A stretch of 17,240 bases of DNA. It comes from a virus (taxonomy: Duplodnaviria > Heunggongvirae > Uroviricota > Caudoviricetes). The DNA lies in IMG/VR virus record IMGVR_UViG_2671180674_000015, positions 1 to 17,240 of that record; one strand, given 5' to 3'. Below the pieces are notes generated by a model. The model saw only the letters and a list, made by a program, of their open reading frames with translations, ran no database searches and had not been told where the DNA came from. Numbering within the stretch: the stretch's first letter is position 1; every line of letters starts with the position of its first letter. Both the position numbers and the translations under genes were made by a program. Below, in pieces: positions 3,715-12,611 of this stretch.

Positions 3715-4797
3715 ATGAAAAAATTAACAGTGGCAATTTCTGCTGTAGCTGCATCAGTACTGATGGCGATGTCTGCTCAGGCAGCTGAAATTTATAATAA
3801 AGACAGTAACAAGCTGGATCTGTACGGGAAAGTTAATGCTAAGCACTACTTCTCCTCTAATGATGCAGATGATGGTGATACTACTTATGCCCGTCTTGGC
3901 TTCAAAGGTGAAACCCAAATCAACGATCAACTGACTGGTTTCGGTCAGTGGGAATATGAATTCAAAGGCAACCGCGCTGAATCTCAAGGTTCCTCCAAAG
4001 ATAAAACCCGTCTTGCCTTCGCTGGCCTGAAATTCGGTGACTACGGCTCCATCGATTACGGCCGTAACTACGGTGTAGCATACGACATCGGTGCATGGAC
4101 CGACGTTCTGCCAGAATTCGGTGGCGATACCTGGACCCAAACAGATGTATTCATGACTGGTCGCACCACAGGTGTTGCAACTTATCGTAACAACGACTTC
4201 TTTGGTCTGGTTGATGGCCTGAACTTTGCAGCTCAGTATCAGGGCAAAAATGACCGAAATGAAGTAACTGAAGCTAATGGCGATGGTTTCGGTTTCTCAA
4301 CTACTTATGAGTATGAAGGATTCGGCGTGGGTGCAACCTATGCTAAATCTGATCGCACTAATAATCAGGTTATCTACGGTAACAACGGTCTGAATGCTTC
4401 TGGTCAAAATGCTGAAGTATGGGCAGCTGGTCTGAAATATGATGCGAACAACATCTATCTGGCCACCACCTATTCTGAAACCCAGAACATGACTGTTTTT
4501 GGTAATAACCATATTGCCAACAAAGCACAAAACTTCGAAGCTGTTGCACAATATCAGTTCGACTTCGGCCTGCGTCCATCCGTTGCTTACCTGCATTCTA
4601 AAGGAAAAGACTTGGGTGTTTGGGGTGATCAGGACCTGGTTGAATATGTTGATGTAGGTGCAACCTATTACTTCAACAAAAATATGTCCACTTTTGTTGA
4701 CTACAAAATCAACCTGATTGATAAGAGCGATTTCACGAAAGCATCTGGCGTTGCTACCGATGATATCGTTGCTGTAGGTATGGTTTACCAGTTCTAA
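3715..4797 (+). CDS. nmpC: Outer-membrane general porin, OmpC/OmpF family (NmpC/Lc-like prophage porin moron)
   Basis: 360 aa, signal peptide ending AQA|AE, porin-type beta-barrel with C-terminal Phe (VGMVYQF). Located antisense between Q and the holin, as nmpC is in DLP12 and lc in PA-2. Confidence 0.8.
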
Positions 4798-7301: not shown

Positions 7302-7378
7302 GTTGATAGATCCAGTAATGACCTCAGAACTCCATCTGGATTTGTTCAGAACGCTCGGTTGCCGCCGGGCGTTTTTTA
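7302..7378 (+). ncRNA. oop: OOP antisense RNA (antisense to the cII 3' end) with its intrinsic terminator
   Basis: Plus-strand GTTGATAGATCCAGTAATGACCTCAGAACTCCATCTGGATTTGTTCAGAACGCTCGGTTGCCGCCGGGCGTTTTTT matches my recall of lambda OOP. It overlaps the cII 3' end in antisense and ends in a hairpin plus T-run. Confidence 0.7.
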
Positions 7379-7620
7379 TTGGTGAGTCCATCAAGCGCAT
7401 ACTTAAAAGCCCTGCTAATCGGACTGATGTCTGATGCCATTCCGAAAGCACACAAGACCGAAGCAATAAATCTCCAGTCCGTTCTGCTTATCTTCGATTC
7501 ATGACAGCCAATCATCTTTGCCAGACCGCGCTGGGTAATAGCTGACAGATTGATAAGTAAATCTGTTTCTGCGCGATCAACGTCACGCTGTGATAGTTTG
7601 CTGTAACTTGTTCTTTCCAT
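7324..7620 (-). CDS. cII: CII transcriptional activator (mosaic: heterologous N-terminal part, lambda-like C-terminal tail)
   Basis: 98 aa. C-terminus LTNKKRPAATERSEQIQMEF matches lambda CII; the HTH region differs from lambda. Lies between cro and O. Confidence 0.75.
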   Translation of the reverse strand: MERTSYSKLSQRDVDRAETDLLINLSAITQRGLAKMIGCHESKISRTDWRFIASVLCAFGMASDISPISRAFKYALDGLTNKKRPAATERSEQIQMEF

Positions 7621-7705
7621 TTCTTAAGATTTCCAATAGTGAATAGTTAGTTGAAAGGTATGCGTGGAAACGCATATGGCCTTAGTTGGTCAGATATCTT
7701 GGAAC

Positions 7706-7751
7706 TCGCTTTTCAGCGACGTAGGACGAATGTCCGTTGTTACAAAGAGCG
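7706..7751 (-). promoter_or_regulatory. Putative nutR (boxA CGCTCTTTGTAACAA, intervening hairpin, boxB TCGCT-GAAA-AGCGA)
   Basis: Minus-strand boxA-like sequence 11 nt after the cro stop, then a 5-bp stem with GAAA loop. The same three-part layout recurs downstream of PL. Confidence 0.45.
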
Positions 7752-7761
7752 GATCCGCTTA

Positions 7762-7977
7762 TTAAGCGGCTTTGTGTTCCGGCGGGAACACGTCATCAAG
7801 ACTGACTTTTGCGCCTAACTTGTTTAGGCACGCAACAAGAGCACGGCATGTTTTAAGGTCTGGGAAGCGACGACCAGATTCCCAATGTCCGATAGCTCCC
7901 TGTGTGCATCCAACTGCCTTAGCAAGTGTTGTTTGAGAGATATTCAGTGACTCTCGATATTTTCGTAGGTTGCTCAT
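7762..7977 (-). CDS. cro: Cro-like HTH repressor (71 aa)
   Basis: ATG at 7977 preceded by GGAGGG. HTH segment QTTLAKAVGCTQGAIGHWESGRR. Divergent from cI across the operator region. The track's longer form overlaps the operators and was not used. Confidence 0.7.
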   Translation of the reverse strand: MSNLRKYRESLNISQTTLAKAVGCTQGAIGHWESGRRFPDLKTCRALVACLNKLGAKVSLDDVFPPEHKAA

Positions 7978-8088
7978 ATGCCCTCCATAGTAAACACGAA
8001 TAAAAAAATACAATATGTACTTTACGAATACAAGTAAAAATACATATTGTGCATGGATGGTTCCAGTACAAAGCGTAATAATAAGGAC
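7978..8088. promoter_or_regulatory. Divergent OR/PR/PRM region with three operator-like sites
   Basis: Sites at 8011-8022 (ACAATATGTACT), 8041-8052 (ATACATATTGTG) and 8066-8080 (AGTACAAAGCGTAAT) resemble the OL palindrome AGTACATATCGTACT. A -10-like TAATAT at 8077-8082 places a PRM start at about the cI ATG (leaderless). Confidence 0.5.
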
Positions 8089-8748
8089 ATGAAAATGAAA
8101 TGGTATGAACTGGCTAGATCCAGAATGAAAGAGCTCGGCATAACTCAAGAGAAGTTAGCCGAAGAACTAGGTATGACGCAGGGTGGGATTGGACACTGGT
8201 TGCGCGGATCTCGTCATCCATCTCTTAGTGATATTGGTGTGGTGTTTAAATACCTTGGTATTGATAACATATCATTCAACCACGACGGGACATTTTCACC
8301 TGTTGGCGAATACTCATCGGCCCCAGTTAAAAAACAATATGAGTACCCTGTTTTTTCTCATGTTCAGGCTGGGATGTTCTCTCCAGAACTCAGAACCTTT
8401 ACCAAAGGCGATGCGGAGAGATTGGTAAGCACAACCAAAAAAGCCAGTGACTCTGCATTCTGGCTTGAGGTTGAAGGTAACTCAATGACCGCACCAACAG
8501 GTTCCAAGCCCAGCTTTCCTGACGGGATGTTAATTCTGGTTGACCCTGAGCAGGCTGTTGAGCCAGGCGATTTCTGTATAGCCAGACTTGGTGGTGATGA
8601 GTTTACCTTCAAGAAACTGATCAGGGATAGCGGTCAGGTGTTTCTACAGCCACTAAACCCACAATACCCAATGATCCCATGCAATGAGAGTTGTTCCGTT
8701 GTGGGGAAAGTTATCGCTAGTCAGTGGCCTGAAGAGACGTTTGGGTGA
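8089..8748 (+). CDS. cI: CI prophage repressor, chimeric: heterologous N-terminal HTH domain with lambda-like linker and S24 autocleavage C-terminal domain
   Basis: From [17 protein letters not shown] through the C-terminal ...[12 protein letters not shown] it matches lambda CI (Ala-Gly cleavage site, Ser in GNSM, Lys in KKL). The N-terminal [24 protein letters not shown] is not lambda-like. ATG at 8089 (or 8095). Confidence 0.85.
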
Positions 8749-10305: not shown

Positions 10306-10356
10306 TTACAACAAATTGTATTGATCTTGTAAAGTACATATCGTACTATTTAACCG
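10306..10356 (+). promoter_or_regulatory. PL promoter with OL operator(s)
   Basis: -35 TTGATC (10321-10326), 17-nt spacer, -10 TACTAT (10344-10349). Palindromic operator AGTACATATCGTACT (10333-10347) overlaps the spacer and -10; a second related site is at 10311-10322. Confidence 0.5.
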
Positions 10357-10394
10357 TCAGCAGGACGCTGGAAGCCAAATGGAACAGACTGGCA

Positions 10395-10440
10395 GGCTCT
10401 TTAAACAACGTCGACTCTCGACTACGTGGCTGAAAAGCCA
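10395..10440 (+). promoter_or_regulatory. Putative nutL (boxA GGCTCTTTAAACAA, intervening hairpin GTCGA-ctc-TCGAC, boxB TGGCT-GAAA-AGCCA)
   Basis: BoxA-like sequence about 40 nt downstream of the predicted PL start, then a 5-bp stem with GAAA loop. Architecture parallels the nutR candidate. Confidence 0.45.
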
Positions 10441-10538
10441 GATCACCCAACCACATAAGCTGTGGGATGCAATGCCGAAGCAACCGTCTCAGGAGGAGCT
10501 TCGAGATTGCATCGCCAAAGTTTATTCGGGAGGAATCC

Positions 10539-10811
10539 ATGTCCAGAAAAACAGAATTTAAAGGCACCGCAGCTTCTCGCCGTAGAGCTCGTCGCGCAAA
10601 TCTGCAAAGTCAGGAGGCGATCAGCTCCGACAAGCTACACAGGCCAACCCCTTCACGAGTGGTCTTGCAATGCAAGCGCAAACCAGCAATGAGAGCAGAA
10701 GTGATAACTCTGACAACGTTGACCAGAAAATATGAAGGTTCAACTTGTCTTCCGAACGTAGCTCTTTACGCGGCAGGCTACCGGAAATCAAAACAACTGA
10801 CGGCGAGATGA
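10539..10811 (+). CDS. N: N-type transcription antiterminator (arginine-rich motif; P22 gene 24-like C-terminus)
   Basis: 90 aa from ATG 10539 with RBS GGGAGGA. N-terminal ARM GTAASRRRARRA; C-terminal ...LPNVALYAAGYRKSKQLTAR. First gene downstream of PL and nutL. Confidence 0.75.
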   Translation: MSRKTEFKGTAASRRRARRANLQSQEAISSDKLHRPTPSRVVLQCKRKPAMRAEVITLTTLTRKYEGSTCLPNVALYAAGYRKSKQLTAR

Positions 10812-12374: not shown

Positions 12375-12446
12375 GCGCTGCGTTACCGCATACCAATAAC
12401 GCTTCACTCGAGGCGTTTTTCGTTATGTATAAATAAGGAGCACACC

Positions 12447-12611
12447 ATGCAATATGCCATTGCAGGGTGGCCTGTTGCTGGCTGCTCTTCCGAATCTTTA
12501 CTTGAACGAATCACCCGTAAATTACGTGACGGATGGAAACGCCTTATCGACATACTTAATCAGCCAGGAGTCCCAAAAAATGGATCAAACACTTATGGCT
12601 ATCCAGACTAA
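12447..12611 (+). CDS. cIII: CIII (FtsH inhibitor that stabilises CII)
   Basis: 54 aa, [54 protein letters not shown]. Below the ORF-track cut-off. Confidence 0.8.
   Translation: MQYAIAGWPVAGCSSESLLERITRKLRDGWKRLIDILNQPGVPKNGSNTYGYPD

What the first reader, a model, noticed from the sequence alone, without database searches (positions are those of the whole stretch)
10395..10440. nutL and nutR candidates share an unusual three-part layout: boxA, small hairpin, GAAA-tetraloop boxB
Downstream of PL: GGCTCTTTAAACAA, then GTCGA-ctc-TCGAC, then TGGCT-GAAA-AGCCA. Downstream of cro on the minus strand (7706-7751): CGCTCTTTGTAACAA, then GGAC-attc-GTCC, then TCGCT-GAAA-AGCGA. Lambda boxB has a pentaloop and no intervening hairpin; the parallel layout at both sites, together with an N protein carrying an arginine-rich motif, suggests a distinct N-boxB specificity.
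Basis: partly seen in the sequence, partly recalled or inferred. Interest (0 to 1): 0.45.

Follow-up and report, generated by a model that had tools for sequence, protein, structure and literature searches.

The report
Phage nut sites with tetraloop boxB
These are the two N-utilisation (nut) antitermination sites of a very common E. coli lambdoid prophage; their layout is already known from Shiga-toxin phage H-19B, and the one less ordinary point is a four-base GAAA boxB loop that always travels with one particular version of the N protein's RNA-binding motif.

Summary
Both sites read boxA, a small hairpin, UACG, then a 5-bp boxB stem with a GAAA loop. nutL is at 10395-10440 (+) and nutR at 7751-7706 (-).

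They are nutL and nutR of a lambdoid phage that is 100% identical to Escherichia phage 2G7b over the two stretches compared. The same sequences are already annotated "putative N-utilization" in VT2-Sakai (AP000422.1). The nutL stretch occurs in 746 of 5,426 complete E. coli genomes.

The three-part layout is not new. It is the H-19B-type nut architecture. H-19B nutR has the identical spacer hairpin, UACG and boxB stem, and differs by one extra C in the loop (GACAA).

The loop/N match is not described in any paper I could read:
- In about 165 loci, G(A/C)AA tetraloops at both nut sites go only with N proteins whose arginine-rich motif reads RRRxRRAxLQ. One Rahnella-type variant (RRREARKHLQ) is also tetraloop.
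- G(A/U)CAA pentaloops go only with the H-19B motif RRRERLKAKAL. No locus was discordant.
- Two near-identical Salmonella phages differ by exactly this swap.
- The spacer hairpin and boxB stems show compensatory changes.

Verdict: known kind, probable new boxB/ARM specificity class, modest interest. No function was tested.

The parts
10321..10349 (+). PL promoter (TTGATC, 17 nt, TACTAT). The transcript leader TCAGCAGGACGC follows at 10357-10368.
   Evidence: It aligns with the 'putative major leftward promoter' annotated in VT2-Sakai. The leader matches lambda's PL transcript start ATCAGCAGGACGC. The consensus scan missed it (8 of 12 matches).
10395..10408 (+). nutL boxA (GGCTCTTTAAACAA)
   Evidence: It sits inside the VT2-Sakai feature 'putative N-utilization leftward'.
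10410..10422 (+). nutL spacer hairpin GTCGA-ctc-TCGAC
   Evidence: It folds alone at -4.9 kcal/mol. Related loci keep the stems while the loops vary (ctc, actc, acac, atc, gcac, atgaa), or replace both arms together (GGTGA/TCACC, GATTC/GAATC).
10423..10426 (+). UACG linker between spacer hairpin and boxB
   Evidence: Invariant in all 19 distinct nut sites aligned and in the loci from other genera.
10427..10440 (+). nutL boxB: 5-bp stem TGGCT/AGCCA with GAAA (GNRA) tetraloop
   Evidence: It folds alone at -7.1 kcal/mol, z = -3.4. Compensatory stem changes are seen elsewhere (CGGCT/AGCCG, AGGCT/AGCCT, TGGCC/GGCCA).
10539..10811 (+). N gene, 90 aa; ARM about residues 9-26 (KGTAASRRRARRANLQSQE); no tryptophan anywhere in the protein
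   Evidence: Translation. Pfam PF25694 N_peptide E = 3.4e-32. 100% identical to N of VT2-Sakai, 2G7b and others.
7737..7751 (-). nutR boxA (CGCTCTTTGTAACAA), starting 11 nt after the cro stop codon
   Evidence: It lies within or next to the VT2-Sakai feature 'putative N-utilization rightward'.
7724..7735 (-). nutR spacer hairpin GGAC-attc-GTCC
   Evidence: Identical to the spacer hairpin of H-19B nutR. The antisense oligo 'nutR spacer of H-19B' in Muteeb 2012 covers it. It is weak on its own (-1.2 kcal/mol).
7720..7723 (-). UACG linker
7706..7719 (-). nutR boxB: stem TCGCT/AGCGA with GAAA tetraloop
   Evidence: It folds alone at -6.5 kcal/mol. H-19B nutR has the same stem with loop GACAA, a difference of one C.
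7762..7977 (-). cro (71 aa), the gene upstream of nutR in the PR operon
   Evidence: Translation. Annotated Cro in VT2-Sakai and PhiR11_1.
7659..7678 (-). tR1-region hairpin (CATATGCGT-ttcc-ACGCATA) downstream of nutR. This is the first terminator region that N-modified polymerase would have to pass.
   Evidence: It corresponds to the 'putative rho dependent terminator for pR transcript' in VT2-Sakai. The same sequence follows H-19B nutR, where nutR/tR1 was used as the Rho-dependent terminator reporter.
7324..7620 (-). cII, the first gene downstream of nutR/tR1
   Evidence: translation; annotation of homologues.

Best explanation
These are the nutL and nutR sites of a lambdoid (pro)phage with a VT2-Sakai/2G7b-type early region.

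Proposed mechanism. The sites are transcribed from PL (nutL begins about 40 nt into the transcript) and from PR (nutR lies just after cro). Each RNA offers three things:
- A good boxA, which in lambda and rrn operons is the NusB/S10 site.
- A 23-24-nt spacer. About half of it folds into a small hairpin, leaving roughly 10-11 unpaired nucleotides including an invariant UACG. That is close to the 8-11-nt spacers of lambda and P22.
- A boxB hairpin whose loop is a true GNRA tetraloop (GAAA) closed by U-A.

The N protein encoded about 100 nt downstream of nutL binds boxB through its arginine-rich motif SRRRARRANLQ. This motif is lambda-like in its core, has no Trp, and is 7 residues shorter than H-19B's. 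N then loads onto RNA polymerase together with Nus factors, so that transcription reads through tR1 and the leftward terminators.

The boxB loop and the ARM form a matched pair that differs from H-19B/HK97/P22 (GACAA, with the C looped out) and from lambda (GNRNA, with the fourth base looped out). This boxB has no looped-out base.

The spacer hairpin is a shared feature of the H-19B-type nut family. It most likely acts to keep an extended spacer folded away so it cannot mispair with boxB or boxA. It is not a specificity element.

What is shown: sequence, folding potential, homology, covariation and association. What is inferred: N binding, Nus factor use, antitermination, and discrimination between the classes.
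For: Identity of the region:
- The window is 100% identical to phage 2G7b and about 96% to VT2-Sakai over the N and nutL stretch.
- The cro-nutR-cII stretch is 100% identical to 2G7b and related phages (VT2-Sakai itself was not among the listed rows).
- VT2-Sakai's record annotates the identical sequences as putative nutL and nutR, together with PL, PR and tR1.
- N is a full-length Pfam N_peptide match.

Link to a studied site:
- H-19B nutR is GGACATTCGTCC TACG TCGCT-GACAA-AGCGA, identical apart from one C.
- That RNA was footprinted. It has two hairpins, and N plus NusA/NusG protect the spacer and boxB (PMC3526286).

Loop and ARM association:
- 126 loci have tetraloops G(A/C)AA at nutL and, wherever nutR lies in the locus, at nutR (5 have none in the locus). 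They carry RRR[AE][RH]RA.[LM]Q-type ARMs, with one RRREARKHLQ variant. The N bodies are of 90, 100 and 120 aa.
- 39 loci have pentaloops G(A/U)CAA with the RRRERLKAKAL ARM.
- None is discordant.

The link holds across different backgrounds:
- The nutR loop tracks N, which lies 3 kb away, across 19 different cro-end contexts.
- Salmonella phages g341c and 103203_sal5 share nutL and nutR flanks but differ in the ARM and in both boxB loops together.
- The tetraloop class with hairpin and UACG also occurs in Erwinia, Enterobacter, Rahnella, Kluyvera, Pantoea and Tatumella.

Structure: 97.4% of cells are paired. 8 of 10 pairs show double-sided changes. The covariation score is 0.754 against 0.166 in shuffles (0 of 500 reach it), and it collapses when the 3' partners are slid by 1 to 3 columns.

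Literature: in P22 the C of GACAA is looped out and contacts N peptide residues (PMC12550061). Lambda N prefers GNRNA folded as a GNRA tetraloop with one base extruded (PMC12027372).
Against: - No functional test was made. Antitermination, N binding and cross-specificity are inferred.
- N and nutL are only about 100 nt apart, so their association partly reflects linkage. The nutR association and the module swaps are the informative part, and they rest on a limited number of independent recombination events.
- The covariation alignment was registered by hand on the proposed hairpins, so it leans towards the structure.
- The minimum-free-energy fold of the isolated 56-57-nt RNAs, and of the whole N leader, pairs boxA with the 3' half of boxB instead of forming boxB.
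- The nutR spacer hairpin is thermodynamically marginal (-1.2 kcal/mol). It is also invariant in my sample because my search pattern fixed it.
- As I recall it (the text is not held), Neely & Friedman 2000 found that deleting the H-19B dyad had little effect. A positive role for the hairpin is therefore unproven.
- GAAA and GCAA occur together in single phages (L202, L167), so the second loop base is not discriminating.
Confidence: 0.8

Rival explanations
1. These are genuine nut sites, but the tetraloop/pentaloop difference is functionally neutral. N of this phage and H-19B/P22-type N would cross-react, and the association with ARM type is only co-inheritance of linked modules.
For: - N and nutL are adjacent, so they are inherited together.
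- Both loop types can present a GNRA fold.
- The ARM cores share SRRRxR.
- As I recall from Legault 1998, lambda N peptide still binds a boxB in which the extruded base is deleted. I did not check this here.
Against: - The nutR loop, 3 kb from N and separated from it by a highly mosaic immunity region, still matches N in every one of about 160 loci and across 19 cro-end contexts.
- Window and H-19B nutR share the spacer hairpin, UACG linker and boxB stem and differ within that core only by the loop C; the 3' flank is nearly identical and the boxA/5' flank differs.
- g341c and 103203_sal5 swap the ARM and both loops together.
- In P22 the looped-out C contacts N peptide residues.
Confidence: 0.25
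2. The spacer hairpin is itself a required recognition element, for example a binding site for NusA or another factor. The three-part layout would then define a mechanistically different nut site.
For: - The stems are conserved through compensatory changes while the loops drift.
- The position directly 5' of an invariant UACG is fixed in all members.
- NusA and Rho both footprint on the spacer of H-19B nutR.
Against: - The four stem sequences share only the outermost G-C pair, which argues against sequence-specific recognition.
- Loop length varies from 3 to 6 nt.
- As I recall Neely & Friedman 2000 (text not held), deleting the dyad had little effect, one-arm mutations inactivated the site, and compensatory changes restored it. 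That fits an anti-misfolding role.
- P22-type and HK620-type N relatives with the same conserved C-terminus lack the hairpin.
Confidence: 0.15
3. The motifs are not nut sites but chance or other elements, such as small intrinsic terminators or DNA-level palindromic protein-binding sites. On this view the real nut sites lie elsewhere.
For: - The terminator scan flags the nutL spacer palindrome on the opposite strand.
- GTCGAC is a DNA palindrome.
- GCTCTTT occurs 8 times in the window.
Against: - The composite pattern occurs only at the two canonical positions, PL-to-N and cro-to-cII, with 0 of 200 shuffles giving a hit.
- No U-run follows boxB on the transcribed strand.
- The sites are homologous to H-19B nutR, which was used in N-dependent assays.
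- Covariation with the cognate ARM would be inexplicable for a terminator or an operator.
Confidence: 0.03

Closest known systems
H-19B (also HK97, and by GenBank notes 933W) nutL/nutR with H-19B N
   Same: - The architecture is the same: boxA (degenerate in H-19B), a spacer with dyad symmetry, UACG, and a 5-bp boxB stem closed by U-A.
- nutR is homologous base for base: GGACATTCGTCC TACG TCGCT...AGCGA, followed by the same tR1 region.
- The N proteins share the N-terminal MxRxTxFxG, the segment EAISSxxLHRPT and the C-terminus CLPNVALYAAGYRKSKQLTAR.
   Different: - The boxB loop is GAAA (4 nt) here and GACAA (5 nt) in H-19B.
- The ARM is SRRRARRANLQ here and SRRRERLKAKALANGVLA in H-19B, which is 7 residues longer.
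- N is 90 aa here and 127 aa in H-19B.
- boxA is close to consensus at both sites here, but poor (nutR) or absent (nutL) in H-19B.
Lambda nutL/nutR with lambda N
   Same: - Same positions in the PL and PR operons, and the same PL leader sequence.
- boxA is CGCTCTTA.
- boxB has a 5-bp stem with a U-A closing pair and a purine loop that adopts a GNRA fold.
- The ARM core TRRRERRAEKQAQ resembles SRRRARRANLQSQ. I count 9 identities by eye.
   Different: - Lambda has pentaloops GAAGA and GAAAA with the fourth base extruded.
- Lambda has an 8-9-nt unstructured spacer and no UACG.
- Lambda N has Trp18, which from memory stacks on the loop. This N has no Trp.
- The N bodies are not alignable beyond the ARM.
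P22 nutL/nutR with gp24
   Same: - boxA is CGCTCTTTA.
- The gp24 C-terminus LPGVALYAAGHRKSKQITAR is homologous to this N.
- Removing the looped-out C from the P22 loop GACAA gives GAAA.
   Different: - P22 has a pentaloop in which the C contacts the peptide.
- It has no spacer hairpin and no UACG.
- Its ARM is TRRHERRRKLAIER.
Epsilon34/g341c-type N (Salmonella)
   Same: - The ARM class is the same (GSAAGRRRERRAALQN).
- It has GAAA tetraloops at both nut sites, a spacer hairpin and UACG.
- The epsilon34 genome paper predicted a 'novel BoxB specificity' from the divergent N-terminal 27 residues (PMC2629481).
   Different: - N has the long H-19B-like body (120 aa).
- The nutL spacer stem is GATTC/GAATC.
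- boxA is degenerate at nutR.

Membership tests
Lambdoid N-utilisation (nut) site | One site early in the PL transcript upstream of N, and one in the PR transcript between cro and the first terminator/cII | tested here: met
   nutL lies 46 nt downstream of the PL -10 and 98 nt upstream of the N start. nutR lies 11 nt after the cro stop and upstream of the tR1 hairpin and cII.
Lambdoid N-utilisation (nut) site | boxA element close to CGCUCUUUA | tested here: met
   GGCTCTTTA (nutL) and CGCTCTTTG (nutR), compared with lambda CGCTCTTA and P22 CGCTCTTTA.
Lambdoid N-utilisation (nut) site | boxB: short G+C-rich hairpin with a G-first, A-rich loop, downstream of boxA | tested here: met
   5-bp stems and a GAAA loop that fold alone at -7.1 and -6.5 kcal/mol. 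Compensatory stem changes occur in relatives.
Lambdoid N-utilisation (nut) site | [quoted passage not shown] | tested here: met
   N at 10539-10811 matches Pfam PF25694 at E = 3.4e-32. The ARM is at residues about 9-26.
Lambdoid N-utilisation (nut) site | N- and Nus-dependent read-through of downstream terminators | not testable with these tools
   Needs reporter or in vitro transcription assays. The only indirect support is the near-identical H-19B nutR/tR1 used in such assays.
H-19B-type nut site | Dyad symmetry (hairpin) in the boxA-boxB spacer | tested here: met
   GTCGA-ctc-TCGAC and GGAC-attc-GTCC. The latter is identical to H-19B nutR. Covariation is shown across the family.
H-19B-type nut site | GACAA pentaloop boxB recognised by the H-19B ARM (RSRRRERLKAKAL) | tested here: not met
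   The loop is GAAA at both sites and the ARM is SRRRARRANLQ.
H-19B-type nut site | Reduced host-factor requirement (NusB/S10 and boxA dispensable) | not testable with these tools
   The claim is recalled from Neely & Friedman 2000. Only its title was confirmed. Here boxA is well conserved at both sites, which hints at the opposite but proves nothing.
Lambda-type boxB (GNRNA pentaloop, fourth base extruded) | Five-nucleotide loop GNRNA | tested here: not met
   The loop has four nucleotides. Lambda has GAAGA and GAAAA.
P22-type boxB (GACAA, third base extruded) | Five-nucleotide loop with a looped-out C | tested here: not met
   There is no C in the loop. P22 has GACAA, with the C looped out.
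Rho-independent terminator | G+C-rich hairpin followed by a U-run on the transcribed strand | tested here: not met
   boxB is followed by GAUCACC (nutL) and GUUCCAA (nutR). The scan flags neither boxB.
Rfam RNA families | Match to any curated covariance model at the nut sites | tested here: not met
   The only hit in the window is Lambda_thermo at 12434-12492. No Rfam model matched either nut site.

The most novel reading that the evidence does not exclude
This would be a fourth natural class of N-boxB recognition, alongside the lambda 4-out pentaloop, the P22/H-19B 3-out pentaloop and the phi21 hexaloop. Its boxB is a canonical GNRA tetraloop (GAAA or GCAA) with no extruded base, read by a short, Trp-less ARM (RRRxRRAxLQ). 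The class is widespread in Enterobacterales and includes the Stx2 phage of E. coli O157:H7 Sakai. If the extruded base really matters for NusA recruitment in lambda, this class must assemble its antitermination complex without that contact.
Probability: 0.4. Interest if true: 0.5.

Novelty: new variant of a known kind. Interest (0 to 1): 0.33.

Why it matters
N/boxB is the textbook model for recognition of RNA by an arginine-rich peptide, and it is a widely used tethering tool. The structurally characterised natural classes all use five- or six-base loops with an extruded or non-canonical base.

A natural, abundant class with a plain GNRA tetraloop and its own ARM would add:
- an orthogonal peptide-RNA pair for tethering work;
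- a natural test of what the extruded base contributes to N and NusA assembly;
- a clean one-nucleotide specificity switch, since window nutR and H-19B nutR differ within the spacer hairpin, UACG linker and boxB stem only by the loop C.

It also concerns early gene expression in Stx2 phages of the VT2-Sakai type. The identification of the nut sites and the hairpin layout adds nothing new.

Tried and rejected
- Rfam scan at gathering threshold: no nut or boxB family matched. The only hit was the cIII thermoregulator.
- The search for related loci with N alone returned 80 loci at 98% identity or more, which was useless for covariation. I replaced it with a nutR pattern scan that left the loop free, a spread of phage records and a one-genome-per-species scan.
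- My first loop regex missed the tetraloops because of greedy matching. It was corrected.
- Plain MAFFT put the 5' arm of the GATTC-type hairpins out of register. I re-registered the sequences by hand with N padding, which biases the alignment towards the structure.
- The sigma-70 scan did not find PL. I placed it by homology to VT2-Sakai's annotation and lambda's leader.
- Neely & Friedman 2000 and Cocozaki 2008 are not held. Statements about their content rest on my memory.
- Four literature searches found no paper describing a natural tetraloop boxB. This is absence in an open-access library only.
- A PDB sequence search with N gave nothing.
- I considered reading UACG as a UNCG tetraloop and rejected it: its flanks do not pair in most members.
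- I considered the boxA/boxB alternative pairing seen in MFE folds as a regulatory switch. I did not adopt it, because H-19B nutL lacks boxA and the complementarity may simply reflect pyrimidine-rich boxA facing a purine-rich boxB.

Full report
**1. The observation**

Both motifs are in the window exactly as described.

- On the + strand: GGCTCTTTAAACAA (10395-10408), C, GTCGA-ctc-TCGAC (10410-10422), TACG, TGGCT-GAAA-AGCCA (10427-10440).
- On the - strand: CGCTCTTTGTAACAA (7751-7737), C, GGAC-attc-GTCC (7735-7724), TACG, TCGCT-GAAA-AGCGA (7719-7706).

A composite pattern (GCTCTTT, gap, TACG, GAAA boxB) matches only these two places. It matched none of 200 dinucleotide shuffles.

Folded alone, the two boxB hairpins give -7.1 and -6.5 kcal/mol. 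The nutL spacer hairpin gives -4.9 and the nutR spacer hairpin only -1.2.

It turns out to be invariant across the whole family.

**2. Context**

The gene order is the lambda early region in flipped orientation:

- cII (7620-7324, -)
- a tR1-region hairpin (7678-7659, -)
- nutR
- cro (7977-7762, -)
- cI (about 8047-8748, +)
- two accessory ORFs
- PL (TTGATC-17-TACTAT, 10321-10349)
- nutL
- N (10539-10811, +)
- then sieB, ea10, cIII, kil, gam, bet and exo

The PL leader TCAGCAGGACGC (10357-10368) is the same as lambda's transcript start. nutL therefore begins about 40 nt into the transcript.

N is 90 aa (MSRKTEFKGTAASRRRARRANLQSQEAISS...) and contains no tryptophan. It matches Pfam PF25694 'Transcriptional antitermination N peptide' over its full length at E = 3.4e-32.

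**3. Is it already known?**

- The N/nutL stretch and the cro/nutR stretch are each 100% identical to Escherichia phage 2G7b and PhiR11_1. The N/nutL stretch is also about 96% identical to VT2-Sakai, Stx2 phage 1717, YYZ-2008 and Nil2. The cro/nutR stretch is 98.3% identical to 1717, YYZ-2008 and Nil2.
- In the VT2-Sakai record AP000422.1, the same nutL and nutR sequences carry the features 'putative N-utilization leftward' and 'rightward', next to PL, PR, the operators and tR1.
- The 81-nt nutL stretch is present in 746 of 5,426 complete E. coli genomes. These include O157:H7, Nissle 1917 and the type strain ATCC 11775.

So the identification as nut sites is public annotation, and the element is very common.

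**4. The three-part layout**

This is the H-19B-type nut architecture. H-19B's own record (AF034975) gives:

- nutR: CGCTATTTTCACAA-T-GGAC-attc-GTCC-TACG-TCGCT-GACAA-AGCGA
- nutL: GATTC-gaatat-GAATC-TACG-GCGCT-GACAA-AGCGC

Muteeb et al. 2012 (PMC3526286) worked with this nutR. They state that it contains two hairpins. They designed separate antisense oligos to boxA, spacer and boxB. They found that N plus NusA/NusG protect the spacer and boxB, and that Rho also binds the spacer.

[quoted passage not shown] It is cited in two held papers, but its text is not held. My recollection is as follows, and I could not verify it here:

- One-arm mutations inactivate the site.
- Compensatory changes restore it.
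- Deleting the dyad has little effect.

By contrast, lambda and P22 have short unstructured spacers, as read from their own records. So do HK620 and an E. albertii P22-type prophage.

**5. Is the hairpin real?**

I collected distinct nut sites from three sources: IMG/VR loci, phage records and one genome per species.

Four unrelated stems occupy the same position, directly 5' of UACG:

- GUCGA/UCGAC
- GGUGA/UCACC
- GAUUC/GAAUC
- GGAC/GUCC

Within each stem type the loops drift while the stems stay intact:

- GUCGA type: ctc, actc, acac, atc, gcac, atgaa
- GGUGA type: gga, cgga, tgga
- GAUUC type: gaatat, aaatat, aagcaa, aaacat, agtgat, agagat

On a hand-registered alignment of 19 distinct sites:

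- 97.4% of cells pair.
- 8 of 10 pairs have changes on both sides, four in each helix.
- The covariation score is 0.754 against 0.166 for shuffles (0 of 500 reach it).
- The signal vanishes when the 3' partners are slid by 1 to 3 columns.

Two caveats apply. The registration was made with the hairpins in mind. The nutR spacer was fixed by my search pattern.

The chance of an end-to-end stem in a shuffled spacer is 0.1-0.7%.

With the hairpin folded, about 10-11 nt of spacer remain unpaired, close to the 8-11-nt spacers of lambda and P22. This fits a self-contained insertion whose pairing is selected so that it does not interfere with boxB. That reading is an inference.

**6. The tetraloop and the ARM**

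This is the part that goes beyond what I could find described.

I parsed every locus that holds nutL, the N gene, and nutR where present.

- 126 loci have G(A/C)AA tetraloops at nutL and, wherever nutR is held in the locus, at nutR too (5 lack nutR). All of them encode ARMs of the type RRR[AE][RH]RA.[LM]Q, apart from one Rahnella-type variant, RRREARKHLQ, which has GCAA at both sites.
- 39 loci have G(A/U)CAA pentaloops. All of them encode the H-19B ARM RRRERLKAKAL.
- No locus is discordant.

Linkage explains the N-nutL part of this, because the two are about 100 nt apart. It does not easily explain the rest:

- nutR lies 3 kb away, across the mosaic immunity region. It still follows N through 19 different cro-end contexts.
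- From the spacer hairpin through the boxB stem, the window's nutR and H-19B's nutR differ only by the loop C; the 3' flank is nearly identical, while boxA and the cro end upstream differ.
- The tetraloop ARM occurs on three N bodies: the 90-aa window type, the 120-aa H-19B-like type, and a 100-aa Rahnella type.
- Salmonella phages g341c and 103203_sal5 have near-identical nutL and nutR flanks and near-identical N bodies, but they differ in the ARM and in both boxB loops at once.
- The same pairing recurs in Erwinia, Enterobacter, Rahnella, Kluyvera, Pantoea and Tatumella.

GAAA and GCAA co-occur in single phages (L202, L167). The class therefore reads GNRA with N = A or C.

**7. Relation to the structural literature**

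- In P22, the C of GACAA is looped out of a GNRA-like fold and lies within about 3.5 Å of (interacts with) N peptide residues His7 and Arg11 (PMC12550061).
- Lambda N prefers GNRNA, folded as a GNRA tetraloop with one base extruded, together with the U-A closing pair (PMC12027372).
- The window's boxB keeps the U-A closing pair and is simply the GNRA tetraloop with nothing extruded.
- Its ARM core, SRRRARRANLQSQ, resembles lambda's TRRRERRAEKQAQ. It has Glu where lambda has Trp18. It is 7 residues shorter than H-19B's.
- The epsilon34 genome paper had already guessed a 'novel BoxB specificity' for its N from the divergent N-terminus (PMC2629481). Epsilon34-like g341c belongs to the tetraloop class.
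- Four literature searches found only pentaloop and hexaloop boxBs discussed. That is absence from an open-access library, not proof of novelty.

**8. Mechanism, with status**

Shown:

- sequence and position;
- folding potential;
- homology to a nutR that has been used experimentally;
- covariation in both helices;
- strict ARM/loop association.

Inferred:

- N binds boxB through the ARM.
- boxA recruits NusB/S10. boxA is close to consensus here, unlike in H-19B.
- NusA engages the spacer or the UACG.
- The modified polymerase reads through tR1 and the leftward terminators.
- The two classes discriminate between each other's boxB.

One caution: the minimum-free-energy folds of the isolated nut RNAs, and of the whole N leader, pair boxA with the 3' half of boxB rather than forming boxB. 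boxB formation may therefore depend on co-transcriptional folding or on N binding.

**9. Verdict**

- The identification as nutL and nutR is correct, but it is already in public annotation.
- The 'unusual three-part layout' is the known H-19B-type architecture and is very common.
- The suggestion of a distinct N-boxB specificity is supported by comparative evidence. As far as I could check, it has not been described or tested.

I rate it a new variant of a known kind, of modest interest (0.33).

Noticed in passing
window 12434-12492 (+): Full-length Rfam match to Lambda_thermo, the cIII thermoregulator element (84 bits, E = 1.8e-19). It lies at the start of the cIII ORF (12447-12611).
   Followed up: no
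window 7348-7380 (+): A strong terminator hairpin, AGAACGCTCGGTTGCCGCCGGGCGTTTTTTATT, lies antisense to the 3' end of cII. From memory this is the lambda oop/t0 terminator sequence, which implies an oop-like antisense RNA here. Rfam reported nothing at this position.
   Followed up: partly
window 10451-10474 (+); also L206 (lambda), L003, L205, L211-L220: A third conserved hairpin lies 10 nt after nutL boxB (CCACA-taagc-TGTGG), followed by GGGATG. Relatives have CCAAAG...CTTTGG or CCAAAC...GTTTGG followed by GGGGTG. Lambda has CAAAGC-agaag-GCTTTG followed by GGGTGTGTG, which is boxC from memory. The stems covary across phages.
   Followed up: partly
window 10356-10545 (+): The whole N leader folds far better than shuffles (-68.3 kcal/mol, z = -3.7, 0 of 200). 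It has a long hairpin at about 10455-10525 that ends near the N ribosome-binding site. This is reminiscent of the RNase III-processed lambda N leader (from memory).
   Followed up: no
window 10396-10440 (+) and 7750-7706 (-): In MFE folds of the isolated nut RNAs, boxA (GCUC.UUU) pairs with the loop and 3' arm of boxB (AAAA.GCC or GCG) around the spacer hairpin, excluding the boxB hairpin. Lambda's boxA and boxB 3' arm are also partly complementary. This could be an alternative NUT structure or mere pyrimidine/purine complementarity.
   Followed up: partly
window 7755-7769 (both strands): A perfect palindrome, CCGCTTAATAAGCGG, overlaps the cro stop codon. It forms a 6-bp hairpin just 5' of nutR boxA on the PR transcript. 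On the opposite strand it is flagged as terminator-like.
   Followed up: no
L205 (HK620) 4154-4195 and 2480-2525: The annotated nut sites of HK620 have boxB CCCGC-CGAAAT-GCGGG, a GAAA core inside a six-base loop with a C/U flank. They have no spacer hairpin and no UACG. They go with a different ARM (NARNRRRARRQAQREQ), which looks like yet another ARM/loop class.
   Followed up: no
L204 (Salmonella phage 103203_sal5) nutL and nutR: This phage has pentaloop-class variants. nutL is GCTC-C-GTCAA-C-GAGC, with a C·C closing mismatch like P22 nutR and U at loop position 2. nutR is TCGCT-GACAA-GGCGA, with a U·G closing pair. The pentaloop class therefore tolerates non-Watson-Crick closing pairs.
   Followed up: no
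L209, L221 (MAG 'Segatella copri') and L216 (Xanthomonas pisi, 394-bp contig): Short contigs assigned to non-enterobacterial genomes carry an E. coli-type N gene and nutL, at 98% identity in L209. These are most likely binning or assembly contamination rather than host range.
   Followed up: no
L210 (Citrobacter sp. wls619) upstream of N: N has a tetraloop-class ARM (GSASGRRRERRAALQNE), but no nut-like element lies within 230 nt upstream. The region instead looks coding, so nutL may have been displaced by an insertion.
   Followed up: no
L144 (IMG/VR): A window-type N gene is truncated to 76 aa and lacks the conserved C-terminus, while both GAAA nut sites are intact. It may be a decaying prophage.
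   Followed up: no
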